A stretch of DNA of 47,841 nucleotides, from contig JBDRHP010000005.1 of NCBI GenBank assembly GCA_043816785.1, positions 1 to 47,841 on the forward strand, written 5' to 3'. Of the stretch, positions 960-38,461 are shown piece by piece. The notes beneath the pieces were generated by a model. That model had not been told where the DNA came from. It searched no databases and saw nothing but the letters and a program-made list of their open reading frames with translations. The DNA is from Candidatus Margulisiibacteriota bacterium (GTDB lineage Bacteria; Margulisbacteria; WOR-1; O2-12-FULL-45-9). The first letter of the stretch is position 1; every line of letters begins with the position of its first letter. The position numbers and the translations under genes were made by a program.

Positions 960-988
960 TTGACTTTAAAACGCCATGAGTCTAGAAT
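960..988 (+). promoter_or_regulatory. sigma70-type promoter TTGACT-N17-TAGAAT
   Basis: Near-consensus hexamers with 17 bp spacer, upstream of the GGGGGTG RBS and ATG at 1009. Confidence 0.7.
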
Positions 989-13269: not shown

Positions 13270-13275
13270 AGCATT

Positions 13276-13617
13276 ATGAAAATAGTCGATAATCAGATCA
13301 CTCACAAAGAATTAAAAGAAATGGCGGCGGCTAGTTTCGGCAATATGATCAAAGCGGTCGTTGATCTAAAAAAGGGGATCATGGCTGTCGACGCTCCGCT
13401 CCATGCCGATGAAGAGGCCCTGCTGCTTGAACACGGCTCAAAAAACGAGGATCTCTGGGGGATCAATCTTTATCCTGACCTGACCGGACCAGATCTTATC
13501 GAATATGATTCAATGATCAATCTCCGGCCGGCGCAGAACAACCAGACCAGAGGCGTGGAAGATCCTGCTATTCGGCAAAATATCGCCGCGCTGGTCAACA
13601 AATTGGTGATCGGATGA
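13276..13617 (+). CDS. DUF5674-like protein
   Basis: KAVVD...HADEEALLLE.GS..EDLWGINLYP...IEYDSMINLRP.Q.N motif. Confidence 0.75.
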   Translation: MKIVDNQITHKELKEMAAASFGNMIKAVVDLKKGIMAVDAPLHADEEALLLEHGSKNEDLWGINLYPDLTGPDLIEYDSMINLRPAQNNQTRGVEDPAIRQNIAALVNKLVIG

Positions 13618-13946
13618 ATCATCAGCATCAGGGTCTTTCGGCTGAAAGATGGGCCAAATTAACCTTGTATCAGCAAATGGCCAATATTGGCAGCGAGGTC
13701 GGCCGGGCGCTTAATTGGCGGACCAAAGGGAACGAGGAATACAGCCGTCTGGCTTTTTACCGGTCATTGGAATTGCTGGACCTGACGCTTGAGGTAGACC
13801 GCAAACCTTCTCACCTGAAGGAAATGACTCGGTTGCGCGAATGCTTAGTCGATTATTTTGCCGGGGGCAACCAATACGATTCTTCGGCCACCTCTTGGAA
13901 AAAATATTTCCATCCCTTCAATTTCGCGGCCCGAGCCTCACGTTAA
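13614..13946 (+). CDS. Conserved helical hypothetical protein, coupled to the DUF5674-like gene
   Basis: ATGA overlap with the upstream gene; QMANIGSEVGRA, LELLDLT, E..RLRE..VDYF pattern. Confidence 0.7.
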   Translation: MNHQHQGLSAERWAKLTLYQQMANIGSEVGRALNWRTKGNEEYSRLAFYRSLELLDLTLEVDRKPSHLKEMTRLRECLVDYFAGGNQYDSSATSWKKYFHPFNFAARASR

Positions 13947-13984
13947 TCCGCGGCCCGGCGGAAAAGGTTTTTGAAGGGAAATAT
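13925..13984 (+). repeat. Junction repeat A (cgcggcccg-N15-cgcggcccg) running into a duplicate of the dapF 3' end
   Basis: 13925-13959 is 34/35 identical to 15907-15941; 13949-13984 copies dapF 13213-13248. Confidence 0.9.
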
Positions 13985-14008
13985 TTCCTACAACATCTTC
14001 AGTGATTT

Positions 14009-15124
14009 TTAATAAAATTTAAATTTAATTAAATTAACAATTACATTTTTGCCGGCTTTAGATCCCAGCAAATAAATATGATTCCCAGATGGAGTAACAG
14101 CAATATCGCTAAAATACGGCGGACTTTCTAGTTGTTTTTTTGCAACAGGCACACCCACCTGATTAAATTTGCAGAGGGTGGGAGTGCCCAGAGTTATGGG
14201 AGTGGATTCTGATCCTCCTGATTTAATTGTTTGTGGAAGAAAGAGCGCATAAACATTGTACGCGGAATCAACCGCTACGCGATCTCTCCAACCACTAAAG
14301 ATGCCACTCCAATAGACAAGGTTGCTAGTCGACCAATCGTATGCCATGGGATCAAGCTTTAAGATCACAGTAGTGTTTTTCCAAGCCGCCACTAATGGTT
14401 CCTCGTAAAGTCCATAAGGAAAACCCCTGAGATAGCAGTTCCCTTCTGAATCCACCGCCAAAAACCCTTGTACCCACGCCATACCACCTAAGTATTCTTT
14501 GCTTACTATTATCTCTCCGTTAGAATCAAAGATTAAAAGCGAAGTTAATGGCGTGTTTGGATCGTTAAATATCGCATAAACTTTTCCAGAAGGCTGAACA
14601 TGGAGAGAGTTAGGACCATCATACAATATTTTCCCCCAATCGGTAATTTTCTTTCCGGTCGAGTCAATTTTCTTGATGGCGCTTTCTGTTCCTACTGTTC
14701 TTGCGGCAATATAAACATTTTTGGAATTATCAACACCTATATCAAATATGCCCTTAAACTGGCCGCCTACCACCCCATTATTTCCCCATGCAGCATCAGG
14801 CACTCCAGCAGAAGAAAATTTTCTTATAACAGAGACGTTGTATCCCCCCATATAAATAGAACCCTCGGAATCAATTGCCAATCTGTCTGCGCCATCAAAA
14901 GGAAAATACCAACTTTTTGCTTCAATATACTTTTCAGAAAAAGTAATAGTGGTGGTGGTAGTAACGGGAGCAAGGTCTCCTTTCTCTCCCGCTTTAGGCG
15001 GCCAGTTTTTTTGCGGCACAATAGGGGACATCCTTCTTGTTGCCGCCACAGCAACAAACATCGAGGACATTAAAACAAAAAACAGAAACACAGTAACCAC
15101 TAGCAAAATCTTCTTTCTCATCAC
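14009..15124 (-). CDS. Secreted NHL/SBBP-like beta-propeller protein, paralog 1
   Basis: Signal peptide MMRKKILLVV, Pro/Thr linker, repeated (L/V)A(I/V)DS.G..Y blades; AAGGAGG RBS. Confidence 0.75.
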   Translation of the reverse strand: MMRKKILLVVTVFLFFVLMSSMFVAVAATRRMSPIVPQKNWPPKAGEKGDLAPVTTTTTITFSEKYIEAKSWYFPFDGADRLAIDSEGSIYMGGYNVSVIRKFSSAGVPDAAWGNNGVVGGQFKGIFDIGVDNSKNVYIAARTVGTESAIKKIDSTGKKITDWGKILYDGPNSLHVQPSGKVYAIFNDPNTPLTSLLIFDSNGEIIVSKEYLGGMAWVQGFLAVDSEGNCYLRGFPYGLYEEPLVAAWKNTTVILKLDPMAYDWSTSNLVYWSGIFSGWRDRVAVDSAYNVYALFLPQTIKSGGSESTPITLGTPTLCKFNQVGVPVAKKQLESPPYFSDIAVTPSGNHIYLLGSKAGKNVIVNLIKFKFY

Positions 15125-15241
15125 TTTTTACCTCCTTCGTTTTTTCGGATATCCTGATCCCCTAATATCCAGATACCCCATTCTACCCCCCCCCCCCCCA
15201 GAAAAAGTCAACGCCGGTTTGGCTCATCAGCAAAATCCTCA
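15102..15241. repeat. Repeat B: shared start, leader and promoter region of the two beta-propeller genes (copy 1)
   Basis: Aligns with 16954-17088 from agcaaaatcttctttctcatcac through cagcaaaatcctca. Confidence 0.9.
15180..15211 (-). promoter_or_regulatory. sigma70 promoter with poly-G spacer: TTGACT-ttttct-G14-TAGAAT (20 bp spacer)
   Basis: C14 tract at 15186-15199 lies between attcta and agtcaa on the + strand. Confidence 0.75.
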
Positions 15242-15304
15242 GGCGCAGCCTAGGTGGGGAAAAATCGCTTTTTTTGTGCTTTTTTTTGTGTTAAAATCTG
15301 TCAT

Positions 15305-15487
15305 ATGCCAATATTTAAGGCCCGAAAAAGCAACGAAAAAAAGGAATTGGAGTTTGAGCTTAAGTATCAGCGGTCGCTTTCGCTGACCGAAAGATTCCGC
15401 ATGGCGCTTCGCCAATCAAGATTGGTCCTCCAGATGTTGATCAACCATGGACATAGAAAACCTGCTGAAATTATTAAAAGAGCATAA
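15305..15487 (+). CDS. Small basic protein, putative antitoxin/partner of the downstream nucleotidyltransferase
   Basis: 60 aa from ATG 15305 (TGnTAAAAT 7 nt upstream); SLSLTERF motif; overlaps the next gene. Confidence 0.55.
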   Translation: MPIFKARKSNEKKELEFELKYQRSLSLTERFRMALRQSRLVLQMLINHGHRKPAEIIKRA

Positions 15488-15884
15488 AGTAAAATTCGTA
15501 ATTATCGGGGCGATGGCCTTCCCCGCCTATGGTTATTCAAGGGTAACCCTGGACACGGACATCTTTATCGAACCAACTGAAAAGAACGCGGAAAACACCT
15601 GGAAAGCGCTTAAAAGATTTGGTTATGATATTGCCGATATCACCATTAATGACCTGCTCACCAAAAAATTATTGATCAGGCAATATCTGGTTGAAACTGA
15701 CATCCATCCATTTGTAACCGGTGCTACCTTCGAGGAAGTATGGAAACACAAGAAAACCGGCAAAATAGGGACCATTTCCGTTTATTTCGCTTCTTTGAAC
15801 GATCTGATAAAAATGAAAAAAGCTGCCGGACGGAAAAAAGACAAAGAAGACCTCAAAATACTGAAAATGTTACATGAGCAATAA
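15447..15884 (+). CDS. Nucleotidyltransferase (DUF6036/MNT-like), putative TA component
   Basis: VIIGAMA...R.T.DTDI pol-beta motif; LIKMKKAAGR.KD.EDL C-terminal motif. Confidence 0.8.
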   Translation: MDIENLLKLLKEHKVKFVIIGAMAFPAYGYSRVTLDTDIFIEPTEKNAENTWKALKRFGYDIADITINDLLTKKLLIRQYLVETDIHPFVTGATFEEVWKHKKTGKIGTISVYFASLNDLIKMKKAAGRKKDKEDLKILKMLHEQ

Positions 15885-15906
15885 CAAATAATCCCGCCAC
15901 CTAATG

Positions 15907-15941
15907 CGCGGCCCGAGCCTCACGTTGATCCGCGGCCCGGC
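15907..15941 (+). repeat. Junction repeat A, copy 2
   Basis: cgcggcccgagcctcacgttgatccgcggcccggc, preceded by atg as in dapF (atgcgcggcccg). Confidence 0.9.
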
Positions 15942-15944
15942 AAG

Positions 15945-15974
15945 AAAAAAGCCGCCGGAGATTTCCGACGGCTT
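15945..15974 (-). terminator. Intrinsic terminator of beta-propeller paralog 2
   Basis: AAGCCGTCGGA-AATC-TCCGGCGGCTT followed by a T run on the minus strand. Confidence 0.7.
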
Positions 15975-15995
15975 AAAAATTGGTAGCGCCAAAAA

Positions 15996-16976
15996 TTACC
16001 GTTTTAGATAGGGTTTTGGTATGGCTTGAACCTTATAAGTTAATCTTACAATGCCTCCCTGGCCAACATCGATAACTCCGACCAGATAAATATTATTTCC
16101 AGATGGATCAACAGCCACATCGTAAAAAGGCCCTCCCGCCGGTTTTTTTACCTTAATTATTAGATTGCCCGCCTTTCCAAATTTGAAAATGATATTGCCA
16201 TCCTTGTCTCCCATCGGCTTAAGCACATAAACATTATATGAAGAGTCAATCACCACACGTTCGTTCATGCTATTTATCATGCCAACGTCGTAAGTCGCTA
16301 ATACATTAGTGCCCCCCGGATCGCGCTTGGTAATTTTCCCTCCTCCATCATTAAGATAAAAATTCCCCGCGGAATCCACCGCCAAAAATCCTAGTCCCCA
16401 CATCCCCTGCACCTCTTTTTTTGCAAAAACAGTTTCGCCAGAATTAAATGTGTAAAGCCATGTTATTGGCTGTGGACCAAAAGCAAATACCGCAGAGACT
16501 TTCCCGGAAGACTGAACATGAAGAGCCGTAGGCCCCTGATATAATATTTGTCCCCAGTTAGTTATTTGCTTTCCATTCGGGCTAATTTTTTCAATGCGGC
16601 CGCTGGTCCAGCCCTCTGTTTCTGCGATATAAACATTTTTATTCGCGTCAACTCCCATATCAATTACGGATTTTAGCTGACCGCCCGCCACGCCGTTGGT
16701 CCCCCAAGTAGTATCCAATAAACCGGAAGAAGAATATTTCCTTATGCTGCCACCCATCATATCTCCAGCCAAATAAATAGATCCCGAAGAATCAACCGCC
16801 AATCTCCCTACATTAACATTAGGGACATCCCACCTTTTGGTTTCAACATAGGAATAGGACGTGGGCGCAGGTGTCGGCCCCGGCTTGCTTATCGCCGCCA
16901 TGGCAACAAACAAAAAGGATGTGGCAACAGAAAACAAAAACACGGCAACAACCAGCAAAATCTTCTTTCTCATCAC
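15996..16976 (-). CDS. Secreted NHL/SBBP-like beta-propeller protein, paralog 2
   Basis: Same signal peptide start and blade pattern as 14009-15124 (RLAVDSSGSIY, WGTNGVAGGQ, ITNWGQILYQGP, GFLAVDS). Confidence 0.75.
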   Translation of the reverse strand: MMRKKILLVVAVFLFSVATSFLFVAMAAISKPGPTPAPTSYSYVETKRWDVPNVNVGRLAVDSSGSIYLAGDMMGGSIRKYSSSGLLDTTWGTNGVAGGQLKSVIDMGVDANKNVYIAETEGWTSGRIEKISPNGKQITNWGQILYQGPTALHVQSSGKVSAVFAFGPQPITWLYTFNSGETVFAKKEVQGMWGLGFLAVDSAGNFYLNDGGGKITKRDPGGTNVLATYDVGMINSMNERVVIDSSYNVYVLKPMGDKDGNIIFKFGKAGNLIIKVKKPAGGPFYDVAVDPSGNNIYLVGVIDVGQGGIVRLTYKVQAIPKPYLKR

Positions 16977-17088
16977 TTTTACCTCCTTCGATTTTTTTCC
17001 GAATATCCTAATATCCTAATATCCAGATATCCTATTCTACCCCCCCCAGAAAAAGTCAATGCCAGTTTGGCTCTCAGCAAAATCCTCA
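16954..17088. repeat. Repeat B, copy 2
   Basis: Aligns with 15102-15241. Confidence 0.9.
17034..17059 (-). promoter_or_regulatory. sigma70 promoter with poly-G spacer: TTGACT-ttttct-G8-TAGAAT (14 bp spacer)
   Basis: C8 tract at 17040-17047 between attcta and agtcaa. Confidence 0.75.
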
Positions 17089-17152
17089 TGCGTGTTTGAC
17101 GAAAAATTTAAAAATAGAAGATTTAGTGGGGGAAAGGTACTATAATATCCCT

Positions 17153-17741
17153 ATGCTGGGACAAAAAGAAGTATATATCGTTAGCGGACCAAATGGTTCC
17201 GGGAAAACTACTTTTGTACGACAATTCCTGCCGGAATATGTCAATGTTAAAAACTTTGTTAATGCTGATGACATCGCGGTTGGGCTTTCCCCTTTTGATT
17301 ATTCATCGATGAATATTAAATCGGGAAAACTAATGCTGGGGTTGATAGACGAATATATCGGAAAAGGTGAATCATTTGGTTTTGAAACCACTCTGGCCGG
17401 AAAAAGATGGCTGAAAATGATGCGGGAATTAAAAGATGCCGGTTATAATATCTTCCTTTTCTTTTTAGATATTGCTTCAGCTGAATTAGCCATTTCAAGA
17501 ATTAAATACAGAGTTGAATCAGGCGGACACGATATCCCCGAAGAGACTGCACGTCGCAGATACATTCGCTCCAGAGCCAATTTTTGGTATAATTATAAGG
17601 CGATAGCTGATAATTGGTACTTGTTTGTTCGACAATTCAAGCAAGAACCCGGCAGTTGTCGCTAATAGTATAAAAGACAAGTTAACGATCATAACTTCCA
17701 AATACTATGATTTCTTTATTGCTTCAATTGAAGGAGCGTGA
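17153..17741 (+). pseudogene. Zeta-toxin-like P-loop ATPase, frameshifted by a 4 bp duplication
   Basis: GPNGSGKTT, FVNADDIA, FETTLAG, RVESGGHDIP; removing one TTGT at 17621-17628 restores WYLFDNS and a frame ending at 17741. Confidence 0.75.
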
Positions 17742-17743
17742 TC

Positions 17744-17932
17744 ATGGTCAGCCGAGGAAAAACAGATAAGATCGGTCAAATGGCCGAGAAGGCGTTAAAA
17801 GAAGCAGTCAAAAAAGCGCTTGTCCAGCATCAACAGATGGGCATTCCAGCCGTCTACATGCAAAATGGTAAGATCGTTTATCTAATGCCCGATGGTAAAG
17901 TAGTTGCCAATCCTAAACAACACAAAAAATGA
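17744..17932 (+). CDS. Small partner protein (putative antitoxin) of the zeta-like ATPase
   Basis: AAGGAG RBS; AVKKAL..H...GIP.VY..NGKIV pattern seen downstream of such ATPases. Confidence 0.65.
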   Translation: MVSRGKTDKIGQMAEKALKEAVKKALVQHQQMGIPAVYMQNGKIVYLMPDGKVVANPKQHKK

Positions 17933-28481: not shown

Positions 28482-28633
28482 AACTAAACCCTCCTATTTT
28501 TTAGATGTCCATATCCTACAACAACCCTAATTAAGATGCAACAACTTAATCTAGGCGCAACTTAAAAAAGCCCTTGACAACATTACAGGGAATTGCTAAA
28601 GTTGCTCATATTTTATTAAGGGGGGGTTTCAGA

Positions 28634-34224: not shown

Positions 34225-36360
34225 CTAGAGTTCGCTCGTTCTGTGCCGCTCGCGCAACTCCCCGATCTTGCCTTTGTTCCAGCCAGGGATCCGAGAAAAG
34301 TAACCCGTGATCCTTGTTATCCCCTCAATGTTGCCTGAACTGCACTTTGGGCAGCGCTCATGTAAACCGCGGCTCGTCTTGCCGCAGTCAGCGCAAGCTG
34401 TAAACTCTGGCGAGAAGGCGATCTGCGCGTTCTGGGTGTTTTTGAACGTTTTGATCACAAAGTTGGCGATCGATGCAGCACTTGGCCGGGATTCCCCTAG
34501 CCAGACATGGGTCAACGCGCCGGCATCGATCAAGGGATGGAACAGCCCTTCCTGCTTGACCCGGTCGATCGGGTTCATGGGATGAGCAACATTAAAATAG
34601 GTTGAGTTAGTGTAATATATTTCTTTGTTGGCAGGGTTGCCCTTAATAACCTGCCGGGTCTGCTGGGGATAATGCTCCATATCCAGCTTGGCAAAGCGAT
34701 AGGCAGTTGATTCAGCCGGCGTCTGTTCCAAGACAAAATGCAGATCGTATTTCTCAGAAATCTCTTCACATTTTAGCTTAAGAAAAGAAACTATCTTTAA
34801 ACCAAAGCGCAGCGCCTCATTATCGGCGTGTAGTTCCTTACCCAGGTGATACTGGACCATTTCATTTAAGCCCAATATACCGATCAAGTGAGTAACGCGG
34901 CGCAAACGAAGATATGATTCTCCGTCACGGTTCGTGGTCAAAAGGGCCAAAGGACCACTAGCCCCTTCCCTAAGCAAATCCTCAATAAATACTCTTTTAT
35001 CCTTATGGGCCCTGGCCGCGACATCCAGCATTCTTTCGATCTGCTCAAATAATTGCGCGTCATTTTTTTCCGCCAGATAGGCGATGCGCGGCAGGTTAAC
35101 AGTCACATTCTGGATCGCGGAATATCTCATGCGCCAGGGCTCTTTAGCATCCTGAAGATCAGAATACTCCAGTTTAAACGACAGGCGGCAGCATTCGGAG
35201 ATCTTAGCAGTATCGCCGCGGTCAAAAACAAAATAGGTATTACCCTTGTCCGCTGCCACATCAGAGATCAAACTAAGAAATTCATCACAGCCCGGAGTAG
35301 CAAAGAACTTGTCGGTCATGTGCACCAGCGGCTTGGGAAAAAAGAACGGCCGGCCTGCCCCATCACCCTCCTGGTAGACTTCAAACAGGGCCCGGGCAAA
35401 AGATTGTGACTCAGGCAAATAATCCGCGTAATTTTTTCCGGTGAAGCGGCCTCCCCGGCCAATTGCCGGCACTGACTCAAAGTGCTTGGGCACTTCCCAG
35501 TAAATGTTCAAGTCAGAGAACAACCCCTGACCTCCCCGGGAAACCGCTACCGAAGCAAATTCAGTAATTAGTTTGCGCGCCAGCTTTTTCACATGGCCAA
35601 AACCGTAGCCTTCAAGATAAGGCGCGATAAAAAGATTGACCGCATCCCAGCCAATGGCCCCGGCAAAATGGCCATGCAAGGCAGTGGAAAACTTTACCAG
35701 GTGGGAGATCAATTCGTCAGCGTCTTCGGCTGGCTTGGCAGTGGCGGCCGCATCCGGCAGGTCCAGGCCAAACTTCTTAAGATACTCGATCGACTGGCCG
35801 CTGCAGTAAGGCCGGTCAACAAAACCCAGGTCATGCAAATGGATGTCCCCGCGCATATGGGCGTCAGCCACGGGCAAAGAAAAAACATTAAGTAACGCGT
35901 ATTCTTTTTTAATGTTCTCAGCCAGGGTCAGGTTGGTGGCTTCCGGTGAATGCGGCGTATTGGCGTTCTCTTTGTTCTTGTGGCAGATAATTTTTTTGAC
36001 ATCATAGACCGGAACGCCCAAACGGGTATGTTTGCGCCGGGCATCCTCCAGGCCGTATTCTAAAAGTTTAACGTCAACCAGTTCGCGGACCAGCGGCGCG
36101 GTAATGTTCTTGACTGCCATAGCCCGGATCTGCTTATCAACTTCAATGGCAATGATCGAGGCGATCTCAGAGTTGAGCCCGGTTTCTTTGACCAGGGCGG
36201 CCACGATCTTTTCCCGGTCCCAGGCAACGATATCGTCTGTTGAGGTGCGAACAAAAACCGAAAGATCTGTTGCTTCGGTTTCAGAACCTGCGACTGAACG
36301 TCGCGGTTCCGAAAATAAGGAACCGAGAAGTTTATTCTCAGGTTCCGTCTTAACTGACAT
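34225..36360 (-). CDS. nrdD: Anaerobic (class III) ribonucleoside-triphosphate reductase, copy 2
   Basis: ATP cone, ENAN, HLHDLG, PYCSG, SECCRL, EQTPAES, YYTNS, CxxC..CxxC, RITGYF glycyl-radical loop. Confidence 0.93.
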   Translation of the reverse strand: MSVKTEPENKLLGSLFSEPRRSVAGSETEATDLSVFVRTSTDDIVAWDREKIVAALVKETGLNSEIASIIAIEVDKQIRAMAVKNITAPLVRELVDVKLLEYGLEDARRKHTRLGVPVYDVKKIICHKNKENANTPHSPEATNLTLAENIKKEYALLNVFSLPVADAHMRGDIHLHDLGFVDRPYCSGQSIEYLKKFGLDLPDAAATAKPAEDADELISHLVKFSTALHGHFAGAIGWDAVNLFIAPYLEGYGFGHVKKLARKLITEFASVAVSRGGQGLFSDLNIYWEVPKHFESVPAIGRGGRFTGKNYADYLPESQSFARALFEVYQEGDGAGRPFFFPKPLVHMTDKFFATPGCDEFLSLISDVAADKGNTYFVFDRGDTAKISECCRLSFKLEYSDLQDAKEPWRMRYSAIQNVTVNLPRIAYLAEKNDAQLFEQIERMLDVAARAHKDKRVFIEDLLREGASGPLALLTTNRDGESYLRLRRVTHLIGILGLNEMVQYHLGKELHADNEALRFGLKIVSFLKLKCEEISEKYDLHFVLEQTPAESTAYRFAKLDMEHYPQQTRQVIKGNPANKEIYYTNSTYFNVAHPMNPIDRVKQEGLFHPLIDAGALTHVWLGESRPSAASIANFVIKTFKNTQNAQIAFSPEFTACADCGKTSRGLHERCPKCSSGNIEGITRITGYFSRIPGWNKGKIGELRERHRTSEL
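36273..36330. repeat. Palindromic insert in the 5' end of nrdD copy 2
   Basis: gaacc-t-gcgac-tgaac-gtcgc-ggttc with outer ttcggtt/aaccgag; adds about 16 aa relative to copy 1. Confidence 0.65.
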
Positions 36361-38461
36361 TAAAGTGCTCCTCGTTCCTGTAGCGATCTTTAAGTTCTGC
36401 GACCTTGCCCTTATTCCAGCCAGGGATCTTGGAAAAATATCCCGTGATCCTGGTTATCCCTTCAATGTTTTCCGACTGGCAATAGGGACAGGTATCGCGC
36501 AAGCCGCGGACGATCTTGCCGCACTCGTTGCAGGAAGTAAATTCCGGAGAAAAAGCGATCTGCGCGTTCTGGGTGTTGCAAAAGGTCTTGGTCACAAAAT
36601 TAGCAATTGAGGCCGGGCTGGGTTTTGATTCACCCAGCCAGACGTGGGTTAGCGCACCGGCATCGATCAACGGATGGAATAAGCCTTCCTGTTTGACCCT
36701 CTCAACCGGGTTCATCGGCTGGGAAACATTAAAATAGGTTGAGTTGGTATAATAGATCTCGCCGTCCTGGCCATTGCCTTTGACCACTTTTTTAGCAAAA
36801 CTGGGAAAATGTTTAATGTCAAGTTTCGCAAAACGATAAGCAGTGGACTCAGCCGGCGTCTGTTCCAGGACAAAATGCATCTTATACCGCTTGGACATCT
36901 CCTCGCACTTAAGCTTCATGTGAGAAGTAATTTTGAGCCCAAACCTTAGAGCGTCATTGCCTTCATGAAGCTCTTTGCCCAAATGCGCCTGGACCATCTC
37001 GTTTAAGCCTAAGATCCCGACCAGGTAACTCACCCGCCACATGCGTAAATAGGGCGAGCCGTCGCGTTTCATGGCTAGCATGGAAAGCGGGCCGCGCTGG
37101 CCGCTGGCCAGCAATTCCTCAATAAATTTCTTCTTCTGGATATGCGCCTGCGCGCACAGATCAAGGTACTGGTCAAGCAGCTCAAAAAGCTTGGCATCTG
37201 AACCGCCGGCTTTATAAGACAAACGCGGCAGGTTGATGGTTACGTTCTGCAAAGCTGAATAGCGCATGCGCCAGGGCTCACGGGCGTCATCCAGATCTGA
37301 CTTCTCAAGTTTAAAAGACAGGCGGCAGCATTCAGAGATCTTAGCGGTATCACCGCGGTCAAAAACATAATAAGTATTGCCCATTTCTGTTGAGACCTCG
37401 GAAATGTGCATTAAAAATTCTTCGTGGCGCGGGGTCTTAAAGAATTTGTCTGTTATGTGGACCAGCGGCTTGGGGAAAAAGAACGGCCGGCCTGCCCCAT
37501 CACCTTTCTTATACACATCGAACGGGGCCCAGGCAAAACGCTGAGACTCGTCTATATAATCAGCGTAGGTTTTGCCGGTGTACTCGCCGCCAGGGCCAAT
37601 GGCTGGCACCGTTTCAAAGTGCTTGGGTATTTCCCAGTAGATATTGATATCTGAGAAGATCGCCTGGCCGCCGCGAGCCACGGCCTGCTGGCTGTATTCA
37701 TAGATCATCATCTGGGCGATCTGATGGATTTCCTTATCAGATAACCCGACGAGAAACGGGGCAAAGAAAAGATTGACCGCGTCCCAGCCGATCGCGCCTG
37801 CAAACACGCCTTGCAGCGCGGCAGAGAACTTGACCATCTGGGCCAGGAGGACCTCGGCGTGCCTGGCCGGCTTGGCGATCGATAAAGCGTTTGGCAGGTC
37901 CAAGCCAAACTTCTTGACGTACTCAACTGACTGGCCGCTGCAGTACGGACGATCAATAAAACCCAGGTCATGCAAATGGATGTCGCCCAGCATGTGCGCG
38001 TCAGCAATATCCTGGGTAAAAACATAAAGCAGGGCAAATTCTTTTTTAATGCCTTCGGAAAGGGTCAGGTTAGTGGCTTCCGGGCCGTGCGGCACATTGG
38101 CATTCTCTTTGTTCTGGCTAAAAATGATCTCTTTCACGTCAAAGAGCGGCGAACCAAGTCGGGTATGGCGGCGGCGGGCTTCTTCTAAGCCATGCTCTAA
38201 AAGTTTAACGTCGACTAATTCGCGGACCAGCGGGGCGGTCACTGTGCGCAGGTTTAAATGCTTGATCTGCTCTTCAACTTCCGCGCCAATTATCTCCGCC
38301 ATCTCGCGATCTATGTTGGTCTCACGGATCAGCGCGGCAATGATCCGTTCCCTACTCCAACCAACGATATCCTCGGACGAAGTTCTGACAAATAATGCCA
38401 GGTCCGTTGCATCGGATTGTTTATTATTTTGTTCTTCAACGGTCGCTTGAGTCTGCATCAT
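36350..38461 (-). CDS. nrdD: Anaerobic (class III) ribonucleoside-triphosphate reductase, copy 1
   Basis: Same motif set as copy 2; AGGAGG RBS; directly after nrdR. Confidence 0.95.
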   Translation of the reverse strand: MMQTQATVEEQNNKQSDATDLALFVRTSSEDIVGWSRERIIAALIRETNIDREMAEIIGAEVEEQIKHLNLRTVTAPLVRELVDVKLLEHGLEEARRRHTRLGSPLFDVKEIIFSQNKENANVPHGPEATNLTLSEGIKKEFALLYVFTQDIADAHMLGDIHLHDLGFIDRPYCSGQSVEYVKKFGLDLPNALSIAKPARHAEVLLAQMVKFSAALQGVFAGAIGWDAVNLFFAPFLVGLSDKEIHQIAQMMIYEYSQQAVARGGQAIFSDINIYWEIPKHFETVPAIGPGGEYTGKTYADYIDESQRFAWAPFDVYKKGDGAGRPFFFPKPLVHITDKFFKTPRHEEFLMHISEVSTEMGNTYYVFDRGDTAKISECCRLSFKLEKSDLDDAREPWRMRYSALQNVTINLPRLSYKAGGSDAKLFELLDQYLDLCAQAHIQKKKFIEELLASGQRGPLSMLAMKRDGSPYLRMWRVSYLVGILGLNEMVQAHLGKELHEGNDALRFGLKITSHMKLKCEEMSKRYKMHFVLEQTPAESTAYRFAKLDIKHFPSFAKKVVKGNGQDGEIYYTNSTYFNVSQPMNPVERVKQEGLFHPLIDAGALTHVWLGESKPSPASIANFVTKTFCNTQNAQIAFSPEFTSCNECGKIVRGLRDTCPYCQSENIEGITRITGYFSKIPGWNKGKVAELKDRYRNEEHFNVS

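What the first reader, a model, noticed from the sequence alone, without database searches (positions are those of the whole stretch)
15180..17059. Twin poly-G promoter spacers, one 3 bp too long and one 3 bp too short
Seen: both propeller genes have TTGACT-ttttct-(G)n-TAGAAT, with n=14 (20 bp spacer) and n=8 (14 bp). G11 would give the optimal 17 bp, and the same hexamers occur with 17 bp at 960-988. Known: Neisseria porA expression is tuned by a poly-G tract between -35 and -10. Inference: slipped-strand phase variation, with both genes OFF or low in this consensus, consistent with phage- or host-exposed surface proteins.
Basis: partly seen in the sequence, partly recalled or inferred. Interest (0 to 1): 0.78.

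Follow-up and report, generated by a model that had tools for sequence, protein, structure and literature searches.

The report
Twin poly-G promoter switches, Margulisbacteria
Two neighbouring genes for secreted propeller-shaped proteins in an uncultured groundwater/biofilm bacterium each have a slippage-prone run of G's filling the gap between their two promoter boxes, which is the classic design of a random on/off switch known from pathogens and turns out to be common across this bacterium's whole class.

Summary
On the minus strand, TTGACT-TTTTCT-G14-TAGAAT (15180-15211) and TTGACT-TTTTCT-G8-TAGAAT (17034-17059) precede two paralogous genes for signal-peptide-bearing six-bladed NHL-like propellers. 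G14 is the longest G/C run in the 1.53-Mb genome; the next longest is 9. This genome's sigma-70-like promoters peak sharply at a 17-nt spacer, so 20 and 14 nt are off-optimal.

The exact run lengths are not secure. No public contig bridges tract 1. One contig from the probable source sample reads C9 where the window has C8.

The new result is comparative. The organism is a Margulisbacteria-type MAG. The same architecture (-35, 5-10 nt, G7-G17, -10) recurs in 28 of the 65 genomes held for its class, and sits at chance level in the rest of the phylum. It lies mostly ahead of orphan secreted or lipoprotein genes, with spacers from 11 to 23 nt.

Slipped-strand transcriptional phase variation is the best explanation (about 0.6). 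It is inferred: switching within a population, the transcription start site and the expression effect were not measured.

This is a known mechanism (porA, T. pallidum tp0126) in a lineage where my searches found no report. Earlier notes of this scan describe the same design in other uncultured phyla.

The parts
15206..15211 (-). -35 hexamer TTGACT of the gene A promoter
15186..15199 (-). Poly-G tract (G14; C14 on the + strand). With TTTTCT (15200-15205) it makes a 20-nt spacer.
   Evidence: It is the longest G/C run in the genome. No Logan contig bridges it.
15180..15185 (-). -10 hexamer TAGAAT of the gene A promoter
15212..15240 (-). 29-nt block upstream of the -35, conserved between the two copies (26 of 28 aligned bases). 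Possible activator site, or a product of gene conversion.
15125..15179 (-). 5' leader of gene A, with degenerate GGATAT-type 8-nt repeats and an AAGGAGG Shine-Dalgarno sequence
14009..15121 (-). Gene A: 370-aa propeller protein with an N-terminal signal-peptide-like segment (ATG at 15121; an in-frame GTG at 15124)
   Evidence: weak SBBP/ScyF-NHL hits
17054..17059 (-). -35 hexamer TTGACT of the gene B promoter
17040..17047 (-). Poly-G tract (G8 in the window; 9 in one Logan contig of run X1). With TTTTCT (17048-17053) it makes a 14-nt spacer (15 if G9).
17034..17039 (-). -10 hexamer TAGAAT of the gene B promoter
17060..17087 (-). Conserved upstream block, copy B
16998..17034 (-). Tandem 8-nt repeat (TATTAGGA-type, 4.6 copies) in the 5' leader of gene B
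   Evidence: similar 8-nt repeats sit in the leaders of relatives' poly-G promoters
15996..16973 (-). Gene B: 325-aa six-bladed NHL-like beta-propeller with an N-terminal signal-peptide-like helix
   Evidence: model pLDDT 73.7; PDB matches to Brat NHL and the PknD sensor domain
15949..15974 (-). Intrinsic-terminator-like hairpin just after gene B, so gene B looks monocistronic
13270..17928 (.). 4.66-kb accessory island between dapF and an aminotransferase gene. It holds both propeller genes, a DUF5674 gene, a DUF2204 nucleotidyltransferase pair and a zeta-toxin-like NTPase.
   Evidence: In 5 of 5 family relatives examined, dapF directly abuts the aminotransferase.
960..988 (+). Reference promoter with the same hexamers and a 17-nt spacer, ahead of the 84-aa ORF 1009-1263

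Best explanation
Each of the two paralogous secreted NHL-like propeller genes is driven by a sigma-70-type promoter. Its spacer is six fixed bases (TTTTCT) plus a poly-G run that abuts the -10 box, so run length alone sets the -35/-10 distance.

G/C runs of 8 or more are prone to slipped-strand mispairing at replication. Run length, and with it promoter strength, should therefore drift stochastically and heritably in the population. Each gene would then have its own independent on/low/off dial, and two genes would give four or more expression states.

In this consensus both spacers (20 nt, and 14 or 15 nt) lie outside the 16-18-nt range this organism uses. Both genes are therefore probably low or off here. 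G10-G12 would give 16-18 nt.

Shown: the anatomy, its statistical singularity, the genome's 17-nt spacer preference, the class-wide recurrence of the design with variable run lengths, and the secreted nature of most downstream products.

Inferred: slippage within populations, the use of these hexamers as the promoter, the effect on expression, and the selective agent (phage or predator pressure on surface or secreted proteins).
For: (1) Anatomy and rarity. G14 is the longest G/C run of the genome.

(2) Genome-wide spacer preference. Counts of TTGAC[AT]-Nx-TANAAT peak at x=17 (29), with 12 at x=16 and 13 at x=18, against 1-9 in the other bins from 10 to 24.

(3) No rival promoter. No 16-18-nt sigma-70-like site lies upstream of either gene. 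By inspection, the hexamers at 16-18 nt from either -10 match TTGACA at 0-1 positions.

(4) The two copies. The two core promoters are 26 of 26 identical apart from the 6-G indel. The flanking block is 26 of 28 and the leader 48 of 54, while the proteins are 41% identical.

(5) Class-wide pattern. TTGM-N6-24-G7+-TANNNT gives 46 matches against 16 for the backward control, in 28 of 65 genomes. A stricter pattern gives 22 against 3 inside the class and 4 against 6 in the 81 other genomes of the phylum.

(6) Spacer spread. 28 such promoters were tabulated from fetched loci, two of them the window's own. Runs are G7-G17. Spacer counts are 11:1, 14:2, 15:5, 16:4, 17:8, 18:5, 20:2, 23:1, so 11 of 28 lie outside 16-18. 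That is far more dispersed than ordinary promoters. Twin cassettes with identical flanks in G006 carry G14 and G17.

(7) Downstream genes. By my reading of the N-termini, 17 of the 28 downstream ORFs begin like signal peptides or lipoproteins. One, in G005, is an NHL propeller homologue.

(8) The one close homologue. L015 has TTGCAT-16 nt-TATAAT with an interrupted GGGGAGG at the same place.

(9) Assembly behaviour. 2 of 5 contig breaks in run X1 over 2.7 kb fall exactly on the tracts, and tract 2 reads C9 against C8.

(10) Precedent. T. pallidum tp0126 and N. meningitidis porA have poly-G between -35 and -10, with the optimum at 17 nt (passages of PMC7864442; abstract of PMC3639595 in the listing).
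Against: No raw reads were available, so no tract-length histogram exists. The contig breaks could come from sequencing error and low depth (3-10x) alone.

There is no TSS or expression data. One contig of an RNA library covers 16532-16719 inside gene B. If that is true RNA, gene B is not silent everywhere; the tract length in that population is unknown.

MutS and MutL are present, so slippage is not boosted by loss of mismatch repair.

Several relatives carry G9 with a 15-nt spacer: G013 twice, G005, G016 and G036. This could mean the optimum for this promoter class is not 17, or that G9 is simply a stable resting length. In G013 (three copies, all G9) and G063 (two copies, both G10) the paralogous cassettes have equal G runs.

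The pattern required the G run to abut TANNNT, so that adjacency is partly built into the search.

The two cassettes differ by about 10% in point substitutions. A 6-G difference between them does not by itself prove fast switching.
Confidence: 0.62

Rival explanations
1. The G run is a fixed, lineage-specific promoter element and its length is stable within populations. It might be a spacer contact for RNA polymerase or sigma, giving G at -14, or part of the site of an activator bound to the conserved upstream block, as with Bordetella fim or MerR-type long-spacer promoters. Length differences would then be slow evolutionary drift, and expression would be set by a regulator rather than by slippage.
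For: A 28-29-nt block just upstream of the -35 is conserved between the two copies. A shared AAAWTYCCRC motif precedes the -35 in G006, G007, G025 and G010. G9 with a 15-nt spacer recurs in five promoters of four genera. Equal G runs occur in the paralogous copies of G013 and G063. Mismatch-repair genes are present.
Against: One regulator can hardly serve both a 14-nt and a 20-nt spacer with identical flanks. Runs up to G14-G17 are well beyond lengths known to be stable. Spacers range from 11 to 23 nt across the class. No regulator gene lies in the island.
Confidence: 0.2
2. The stated lengths are assembly or sequencing errors around a common functional length (about G10-G11). Both promoters would then be ordinary constitutive promoters.
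For: Depth is low, 3-10x. Contigs break at both tracts, and tract 2 differs by one base between the window and a Logan contig of the probable source sample.
Against: A 6-nt difference is far beyond Illumina homopolymer error at G8. The X1 contig that does cross tract 2 gives 9, not 11. Independent genomes of the class show the same wide range, including another G14 and a G17.
Confidence: 0.08
3. The two genes sit in a recently acquired accessory island and are being silenced or decaying. On this view the off-optimal spacers are one-way degeneration of promoters, not reversible switches.
For: The genes lie in a 4.66-kb island absent from 5 of 5 family relatives examined. Its G+C is slightly low, 0.39-0.45 against 0.469 for the genome. 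The protein family is tiny: 4 database hits at E<=1e-5, of which only one, at 52% identity, is a close relative outside this organism.
Against: Both ORFs are intact, and both hexamers and the leader are perfectly or nearly conserved. Degeneration would not preserve consensus hexamers while changing only the run length.
Confidence: 0.1

Closest known systems
Neisseria meningitidis porA promoter (poly-G between -35 and -10)
   Same: A G homopolymer makes up most of the spacer of a sigma-70 promoter for a surface or secreted protein gene, and spacing sets transcription level (PMC7864442 discussion passage; PMC3639595 abstract in the listing).
   Different: The organism here is an uncultured environmental Margulisbacteria-type bacterium, not a host-restricted pathogen. 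There are two paralogous copies with the same cassette. The lengths (14 and 8-9) lie further from the optimum than the 9-11 range I recall for porA (recalled, not seen in a call). Switching has not been demonstrated.
Treponema pallidum tp0126 (OmpW homologue) and the tprE/G/J/L poly-G promoters
   Same: In tp0126 a poly-G lies between -35 and -10 and is optimal when the spacer is 17 nt. A family of paralogous outer-membrane protein genes each carries its own tract. Lengths vary within isolates (passages of PMC7864442).
   Different: In the tpr genes the tract lies upstream of the TSS rather than strictly within the spacer. Those cases have fragment-length and reporter evidence; this one has none.
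Bordetella pertussis fim genes (poly-C between the activator site and -10) and Mycoplasma hyorhinis vlp genes (poly-A in the promoter spacer); both recalled, not checked in a call
   Same: Several paralogous surface-protein genes each carry their own homopolymer in the promoter, which gives combinatorial expression. A conserved block upstream of the tract could be an activator site, as in fim.
   Different: No activator is known here. The base and the lineage differ.

Membership tests
Homopolymer promoter-spacer phase-variable locus (porA / tp0126 type) | A homopolymeric tract lies between the -35 and -10 hexamers of the promoter of the regulated gene | tested here: met
   Searches show consensus-like hexamers TTGACT and TAGAAT, with the tract abutting the -10, 55-57 nt upstream of the start codon and an SD sequence. 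The promoter assignment rests on sequence only; no TSS was mapped.
Homopolymer promoter-spacer phase-variable locus (porA / tp0126 type) | The tract is long enough to slip (about 7-8 or more) and is over-represented relative to genome composition | tested here: met
   G14 is the longest run and G8 is among only 7 G/C runs of 8 or more in 1.53 Mb; 3 matches against 0.04 expected.
Homopolymer promoter-spacer phase-variable locus (porA / tp0126 type) | Tract length varies at high frequency within a clonal population or between near-identical populations | tested here: inconclusive
   One search used contigs only. It shows C9 against C8 at tract 2 and no contig across tract 1 in 3 of 3 DNA runs that cover the flank. 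Between species and between paralogues, lengths range from G7 to G17. No raw reads were available.
Homopolymer promoter-spacer phase-variable locus (porA / tp0126 type) | Transcription or protein level changes with tract length | not testable with these tools
   The only indirect evidence is this genome's spacer optimum of 17 nt.
NHL-repeat six-bladed beta-propeller | Sequence match to NHL/SBBP repeat models above the curated cut-off | tested here: not met
   SBBP scores 19.5 and 17.7 bits (cut-off 20.5) and TEN_NHL 16.3 (cut-off 27.1). ScyF-NHL scores 25.7 and 31.1 (cut-off 350). The G005 homologue does pass NHL, E 9.8e-20.
NHL-repeat six-bladed beta-propeller | Six-bladed, four-stranded propeller fold | tested here: met
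   the model has about 24 strands, pLDDT 73.7 and pTM 0.73; the top PDB matches are Brat NHL 1q7f (E 1.5e-10, TM 0.64/0.73), TRIM NHL domains and the PknD sensor domain 1rwl.
Bordetella fim-type (tract between an activator site and -10) | A defined activator-binding site upstream of the tract | not tested
   A conserved 28-29-nt block exists, but no binding protein is known.

The most novel reading that the evidence does not exclude
A whole class of free-living, uncultured Margulisbacteria-type bacteria uses a portable contingency cassette. The cassette is a consensus -35, a short A/T-rich stub, a poly-G run that sets the spacer, TAGAAT, and often a leader of tandem 8-nt repeats. It sits on many unrelated, species-specific genes for secreted proteins, lipoproteins and small Cys-rich peptides.

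These environmental bacteria would then run a combinatorial 'phasome' like that of host-restricted pathogens, presumably under phage or predator pressure. The 8-nt leader repeats could be a second, independent slippage dial.
Probability: 0.3. Interest if true: 0.7.

Novelty: new member of a known kind. Interest (0 to 1): 0.5.

Why it matters
Homopolymer promoter switches are textbook for host-adapted pathogens. A 2026 review I searched (PMC13742949, term search only) contains no word beginning 'metagenom' or 'uncultur'.

If the tracts here do switch, stochastic surface or secretome variation is also a routine strategy in small-genome environmental bacteria from biofilm and groundwater samples. 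It would be encoded by a recognisable cassette that can be counted in metagenomes.

It would also bear on the practical reading of MAGs. Consensus homopolymer lengths at such sites hide population states, and assemblies break there.

Full-text searches found no report for this lineage. 'Margulisbacteria' with 'phase variation' gave 1 unrelated paper. 'Margulisbacteria' with 'homopolymeric' gave 1 unrelated paper. 'Contingency loci' with 'groundwater' and 'metagenome' gave 0 papers. Earlier notes of this scan describe the same design in Saccharibacteria, Bacilli, Actinobacteria and Lachnospiraceae (unchecked by me), so it may be a general phenomenon.

Tried and rejected
Collection scans for the promoter. 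Exact-pattern scans for TTGACTTTTTCT-G6+-TAGAAT in metagenome contigs and genome contigs found 0 matches. I therefore had no second assembly to compare tract lengths.

DNA search in relatives. A search with the 156-nt cassette in 60 relatives gave only short, weak hits, E 1e-5 or worse. Two of them (G013:C1, G006:C92) later proved to be poly-G promoters.

Protein searches. Only one close homologue appeared outside this organism: P0004/L015, 50-52% identity, on a 1.9-kb contig. The other 78 metagenome loci and the 71 genome loci are distant propellers, with best-segment identities mostly 21-35% (up to 41% over short stretches). I did not examine them.

Orthologue comparison within a genus. This failed. 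The gene behind the G016 poly-G promoter was not found in its 3 congeners.

Runs X3 and X4. They hold only small parts of the stretch, so I draw no conclusion on habitat or expression from them. The parts of the stretch without cover in X2 to X4 say nothing.

5' leader folding. It gave only a modest hairpin, z -1.7 and -0.6, which is not significant.

GGATAT/GAATAT repeats elsewhere in the genome. A search found only a hairpin-like repeat at the 3' end of a gene on C44 and one coding hit, and no further promoter.

Very long runs in relatives. G28 and G33 in G019, and the clustered runs at a contig end in G035, look like assembly or sequencing artefacts. I did not count them.

A second public assembly. 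A 4,897-nt contig ends inside gene B at residue 85, and gene A's exact protein is recorded on two contigs, so this contig may also carry gene A and tract 1.

Supplements. Supplementary files of the papers were not seen.
Full report
OBSERVATION. Reading 14900-17400 and a pattern search confirm two minus-strand sites: TTGACT-TTTTCT-G14-TAGAAT at 15180-15211 and TTGACT-TTTTCT-G8-TAGAAT at 17034-17059. The spacers are 20 and 14 nt. A third site, TTGACT-N17-TAGAAT, lies at 960-988 (+). The pattern has 3 matches against 0.04 expected, and none of 100 shuffles reaches 3. In the whole 1,529,549-base assembly (106 contigs, 46.9% G+C) there are only 7 G/C runs of 8 or more. G14 is the longest and the next longest is 9.

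THE GENES. Each site lies 55-57 nt upstream of an AAGGAGG Shine-Dalgarno sequence and a start codon. Gene A is 14009-15121 (370 aa) and gene B is 15996-16973 (325 aa). Both proteins start MRKKILLVV followed by a hydrophobic stretch and an A-x-A motif; I read this as a signal peptide from the sequence, with no predictor run. They are 41% identical to each other.

An AlphaFold model of B (3-row alignment, pLDDT 73.7, pTM 0.73) is an N-terminal helix plus about 24 strands. Its best PDB matches are NHL six-bladed propellers: Brat 1q7f (E 1.5e-10), TRIM NHL domains and the PknD extracellular domain. Pfam and NCBIfam repeat hits stay below the curated cut-offs. Gene B is followed by a strong terminator-like hairpin at 15949-15974.

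THE CASSETTE. Aligning the two upstream regions shows a conserved block. It runs from about 29 nt upstream of the -35 to about codon 28, and similarity is lost further upstream. Segment by segment:
- upstream block: 26 of 28 aligned bases identical
- core promoter: 26 of 26, the only difference being six G's
- leader: 48 of 54
- first 28 codons: 67 of 84
- next 100 nt upstream: 53 of 90

The leader of B contains 4.6 tandem copies of an 8-nt unit.

IS IT A PROMOTER, AND IS THE SPACING WRONG? Genome-wide, TTGAC[AT]-Nx-TANAAT peaks at x=17 (29 sites), with 12 at x=16 and 13 at x=18, against 1-9 in every other bin from 10 to 24. The organism therefore uses canonical sigma-70-type spacing. The 960-988 site sits 20 nt upstream of an 84-aa ORF with its own SD sequence. 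No promoter-like site with a 16-18-nt spacer lies upstream of either propeller gene. By inspection, the hexamers 16-18 nt from either -10 match TTGACA at 0-1 positions. As assembled, both promoters would have to work from the -10 box alone, which I infer means low or off.

HOW FIRM ARE THE LENGTHS? Only Logan contigs were available, not raw reads.
- In run X1, the best holder (0.91 of the words) and probably the source sample, one contig ends at 15199 and the next begins at 15186. The break is exactly at tract 1.
- X2 has a contig that ends inside the tract, at 15194.
- X3, from another study, ends at 15182.
- No listed contig bridges tract 1.
- At tract 2, one X1 contig (depth 2.9) ends at 17047, and another (depth 9.6) crosses the tract with one extra C, i.e. 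C9 rather than C8.

Two of the five X1 contig breaks in 2.7 kb thus fall on the 22 tract bases. This fits length heterogeneity. It fits homopolymer read error at 3-10x depth equally well. The 6-nt difference between the tracts is too large to be error.

ORGANISM AND SURROUNDINGS. The window carries housekeeping genes: dapF, ispH, priA, coaBC, two nrdD genes and T2SS/T4P genes. The best named relatives of its IspH are Candidatus Margulisiibacteriota, Saganbacteria and WOR-1 MAGs, at 65-76% identity. The runs that hold the sequence are labelled biofilm and groundwater metagenomes.

In 5 of 5 family relatives examined, dapF directly abuts the aminotransferase gene. In this genome the two are 4.66 kb apart. 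The propeller genes therefore lie in an accessory island (13270-17928), together with a DUF5674 gene, a DUF2204 nucleotidyltransferase pair and a zeta-toxin-like NTPase. The island's G+C is slightly low. MutS and MutL are present.

RELATIVES OF THE GENES. The protein family is tiny. At E<=1e-5 the 5.8-billion-protein collection gave 4 hits. One is a fragment from this same organism, one is a 52%-identical protein, and two are distant. The locus of the 52% homologue (L015) has TTGCAT-TTTCTATTAGGGGAGG-TATAAT upstream. That is a 16-nt spacer with an interrupted G-rich stretch in the same position. Exact-pattern scans of the two large contig collections found nothing.

THE CLASS-WIDE PICTURE (NEW). 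G10+ runs occur in 44 of the 65 genomes held for the class. Among the 30 loci I inspected, several runs sit between -35-like and -10-like hexamers ahead of signal-peptide genes.

A directed pattern, TTGM-N6-24-G7+-TANNNT, gave 46 matches in 28 of 65 genomes, against 16 for the backward control. A stricter pattern over 146 genomes of the phylum gave 22 matches against 3 control inside the class, but 4 against 6 in the 81 genomes outside it. The design is therefore specific to the class.

From fetched loci I tabulated 28 promoters. These are the matches in which the G run starts within 12 nt of the -35-like hexamer, plus one, and two of them are the window's own. I dropped the looser matches and G010:C37, which lies at a contig end.
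- Runs are G7-G17.
- Spacer counts are 11:1, 14:2, 15:5, 16:4, 17:8, 18:5, 20:2, 23:1. Eleven of 28 lie outside 16-18.
- Twin cassettes occur elsewhere too: G006:C92 (identical flanks, G14 and G17, spacers 20 and 23), G061:C235 (G10, G8) and G063:C136 (G10, G10). G013 has three copies, all G9.
- By my reading of the N-termini, 17 of the 28 downstream ORFs start like signal peptides or lipoproteins.
- About six downstream ORFs are small Cys-rich peptides; one gives a weak, sub-threshold ScmA-precursor hit.
- Nine of the ten relatives' proteins scanned against Pfam have no hit above the curated cut-off; eight have no hit at all. The G005 one is an NHL propeller related to A and B.
- The gene behind G016's poly-G promoter was not found in its 3 congeners.
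- Leaders with tandem 8-nt repeats recur in G013, G036 and G061.

INTERPRETATION. The anatomy matches the defining layout of homopolymer promoter-spacer phase variation. In passages of PMC7864442, the T. pallidum tp0126 poly-G lies between -35 and -10 and is optimal at a 17-nt spacer. The same passages describe the porA poly-G as lying between -10 and -35, with transcription lost when spacing departs from 17, and report that tpr-associated tracts vary within isolates.

The wide scatter of spacers among otherwise stereotyped promoters is what hypermutable tracts sampled in different states would give. So are the different run lengths in identical paralogous cassettes (G000, G006), the association with orphan secreted proteins, and the assembly breaks. 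I put this explanation at about 0.6.

Against it:
- There is no read-level, TSS or expression evidence.
- The recurrent G9/15-nt state and the equal lengths in G013 and G063 could mean the runs are stabler than assumed, or that the optimum differs.
- The conserved upstream block could be an activator site, as in the fim type.
- An RNA-library contig inside gene B hints that B is not silent everywhere.

COMPARISON AND NOVELTY. The mechanism is a known kind. What is new is the lineage and the scale. Full-text searches found no relevant paper: each returned 1 unrelated paper and one search returned 0. A 2026 review of phase variation has no word beginning 'metagenom' or 'uncultur' (term search only).

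Earlier notes of this scan report the same design in Saccharibacteria, Bacilli, an actinobacterium and Lachnospiraceae. I did not check them. None concerns this genome. I rate this a new member of a known kind, with moderate interest.

Noticed in passing
window 16998-17034; L256, L230, L257 (G013), L251 (G036) and L263 (G061) leaders: Tandem 8-nt repeats fill the 5' leader just downstream of the -10 box of many poly-G promoters: AGGATATT-type here, AGAATATC x3-4 in G013, and GAACTAAG about x6 in G061. They could be an operator array or a second slippage-prone element.
   Followed up: partly
window 13270-17928: A 4.66-kb accessory island is inserted between dapF and an aminotransferase gene, which are adjacent in 5 of 5 family relatives examined. 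It holds the two propeller genes interleaved with toxin-antitoxin-like modules: a DUF2204 nucleotidyltransferase with a small upstream ORF, a zeta-toxin-like NTPase, and DUF5674.
   Followed up: partly
window 28620-28626; G000 C44:3044-3051; C69:3400-3407: G7-G8 runs lie 6-7 nt upstream of ATG start codons, apparently serving as Shine-Dalgarno-like elements. These may be translational counterparts of the promoter tracts.
   Followed up: no
L259, L260 (G004), L268 (G007), L264 (G063), L266 (G032): Poly-G promoters in relatives also drive small Cys/Gly/Ala-rich peptides with a shared leader motif of the Y-K-x-P-G/E-L type. They look like RiPP precursors, but the only family hit is a weak, sub-threshold match to the ScmA precursor.
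   Followed up: partly
window about 16663-16764 (gene B, near codon 85): There is a recurrent assembly break inside gene B. The X1 Logan contigs leave a gap here, and a separate public 4,897-nt contig ends at residue 85 of B. This may reflect strain variation in the N-terminal blades.
   Followed up: partly
window 16532-16719: A 190-nt contig from a groundwater metatranscriptome library (X4) matches the inside of gene B with 1 mismatch. It is a weak hint of transcription, and DNA carry-over is not excluded.
   Followed up: no
L265 (G006), L268 (G007), L261 (G025), L209 (G010), just upstream of the -35: A shared AAAWTYCCRC motif directly precedes the -35 hexamer of poly-G promoters in four genera.
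   Followed up: no
L225 (G019), L202 (G035): There are very long runs (G28, G33) and clusters of G/C runs at a contig end. They are probably sequencing or assembly artefacts, but I did not examine them.
   Followed up: no
window 34225-38461 (-): Two adjacent full-length anaerobic ribonucleotide reductase (NrdD) paralogues, 711 and 703 aa.
   Followed up: no
G000 C44:57000-57110: A long imperfect hairpin built of ATCAGA/TCTGAT units lies at the 3' end of a gene. Its units resemble the 8-nt leader repeats of G013 and G036.
   Followed up: no
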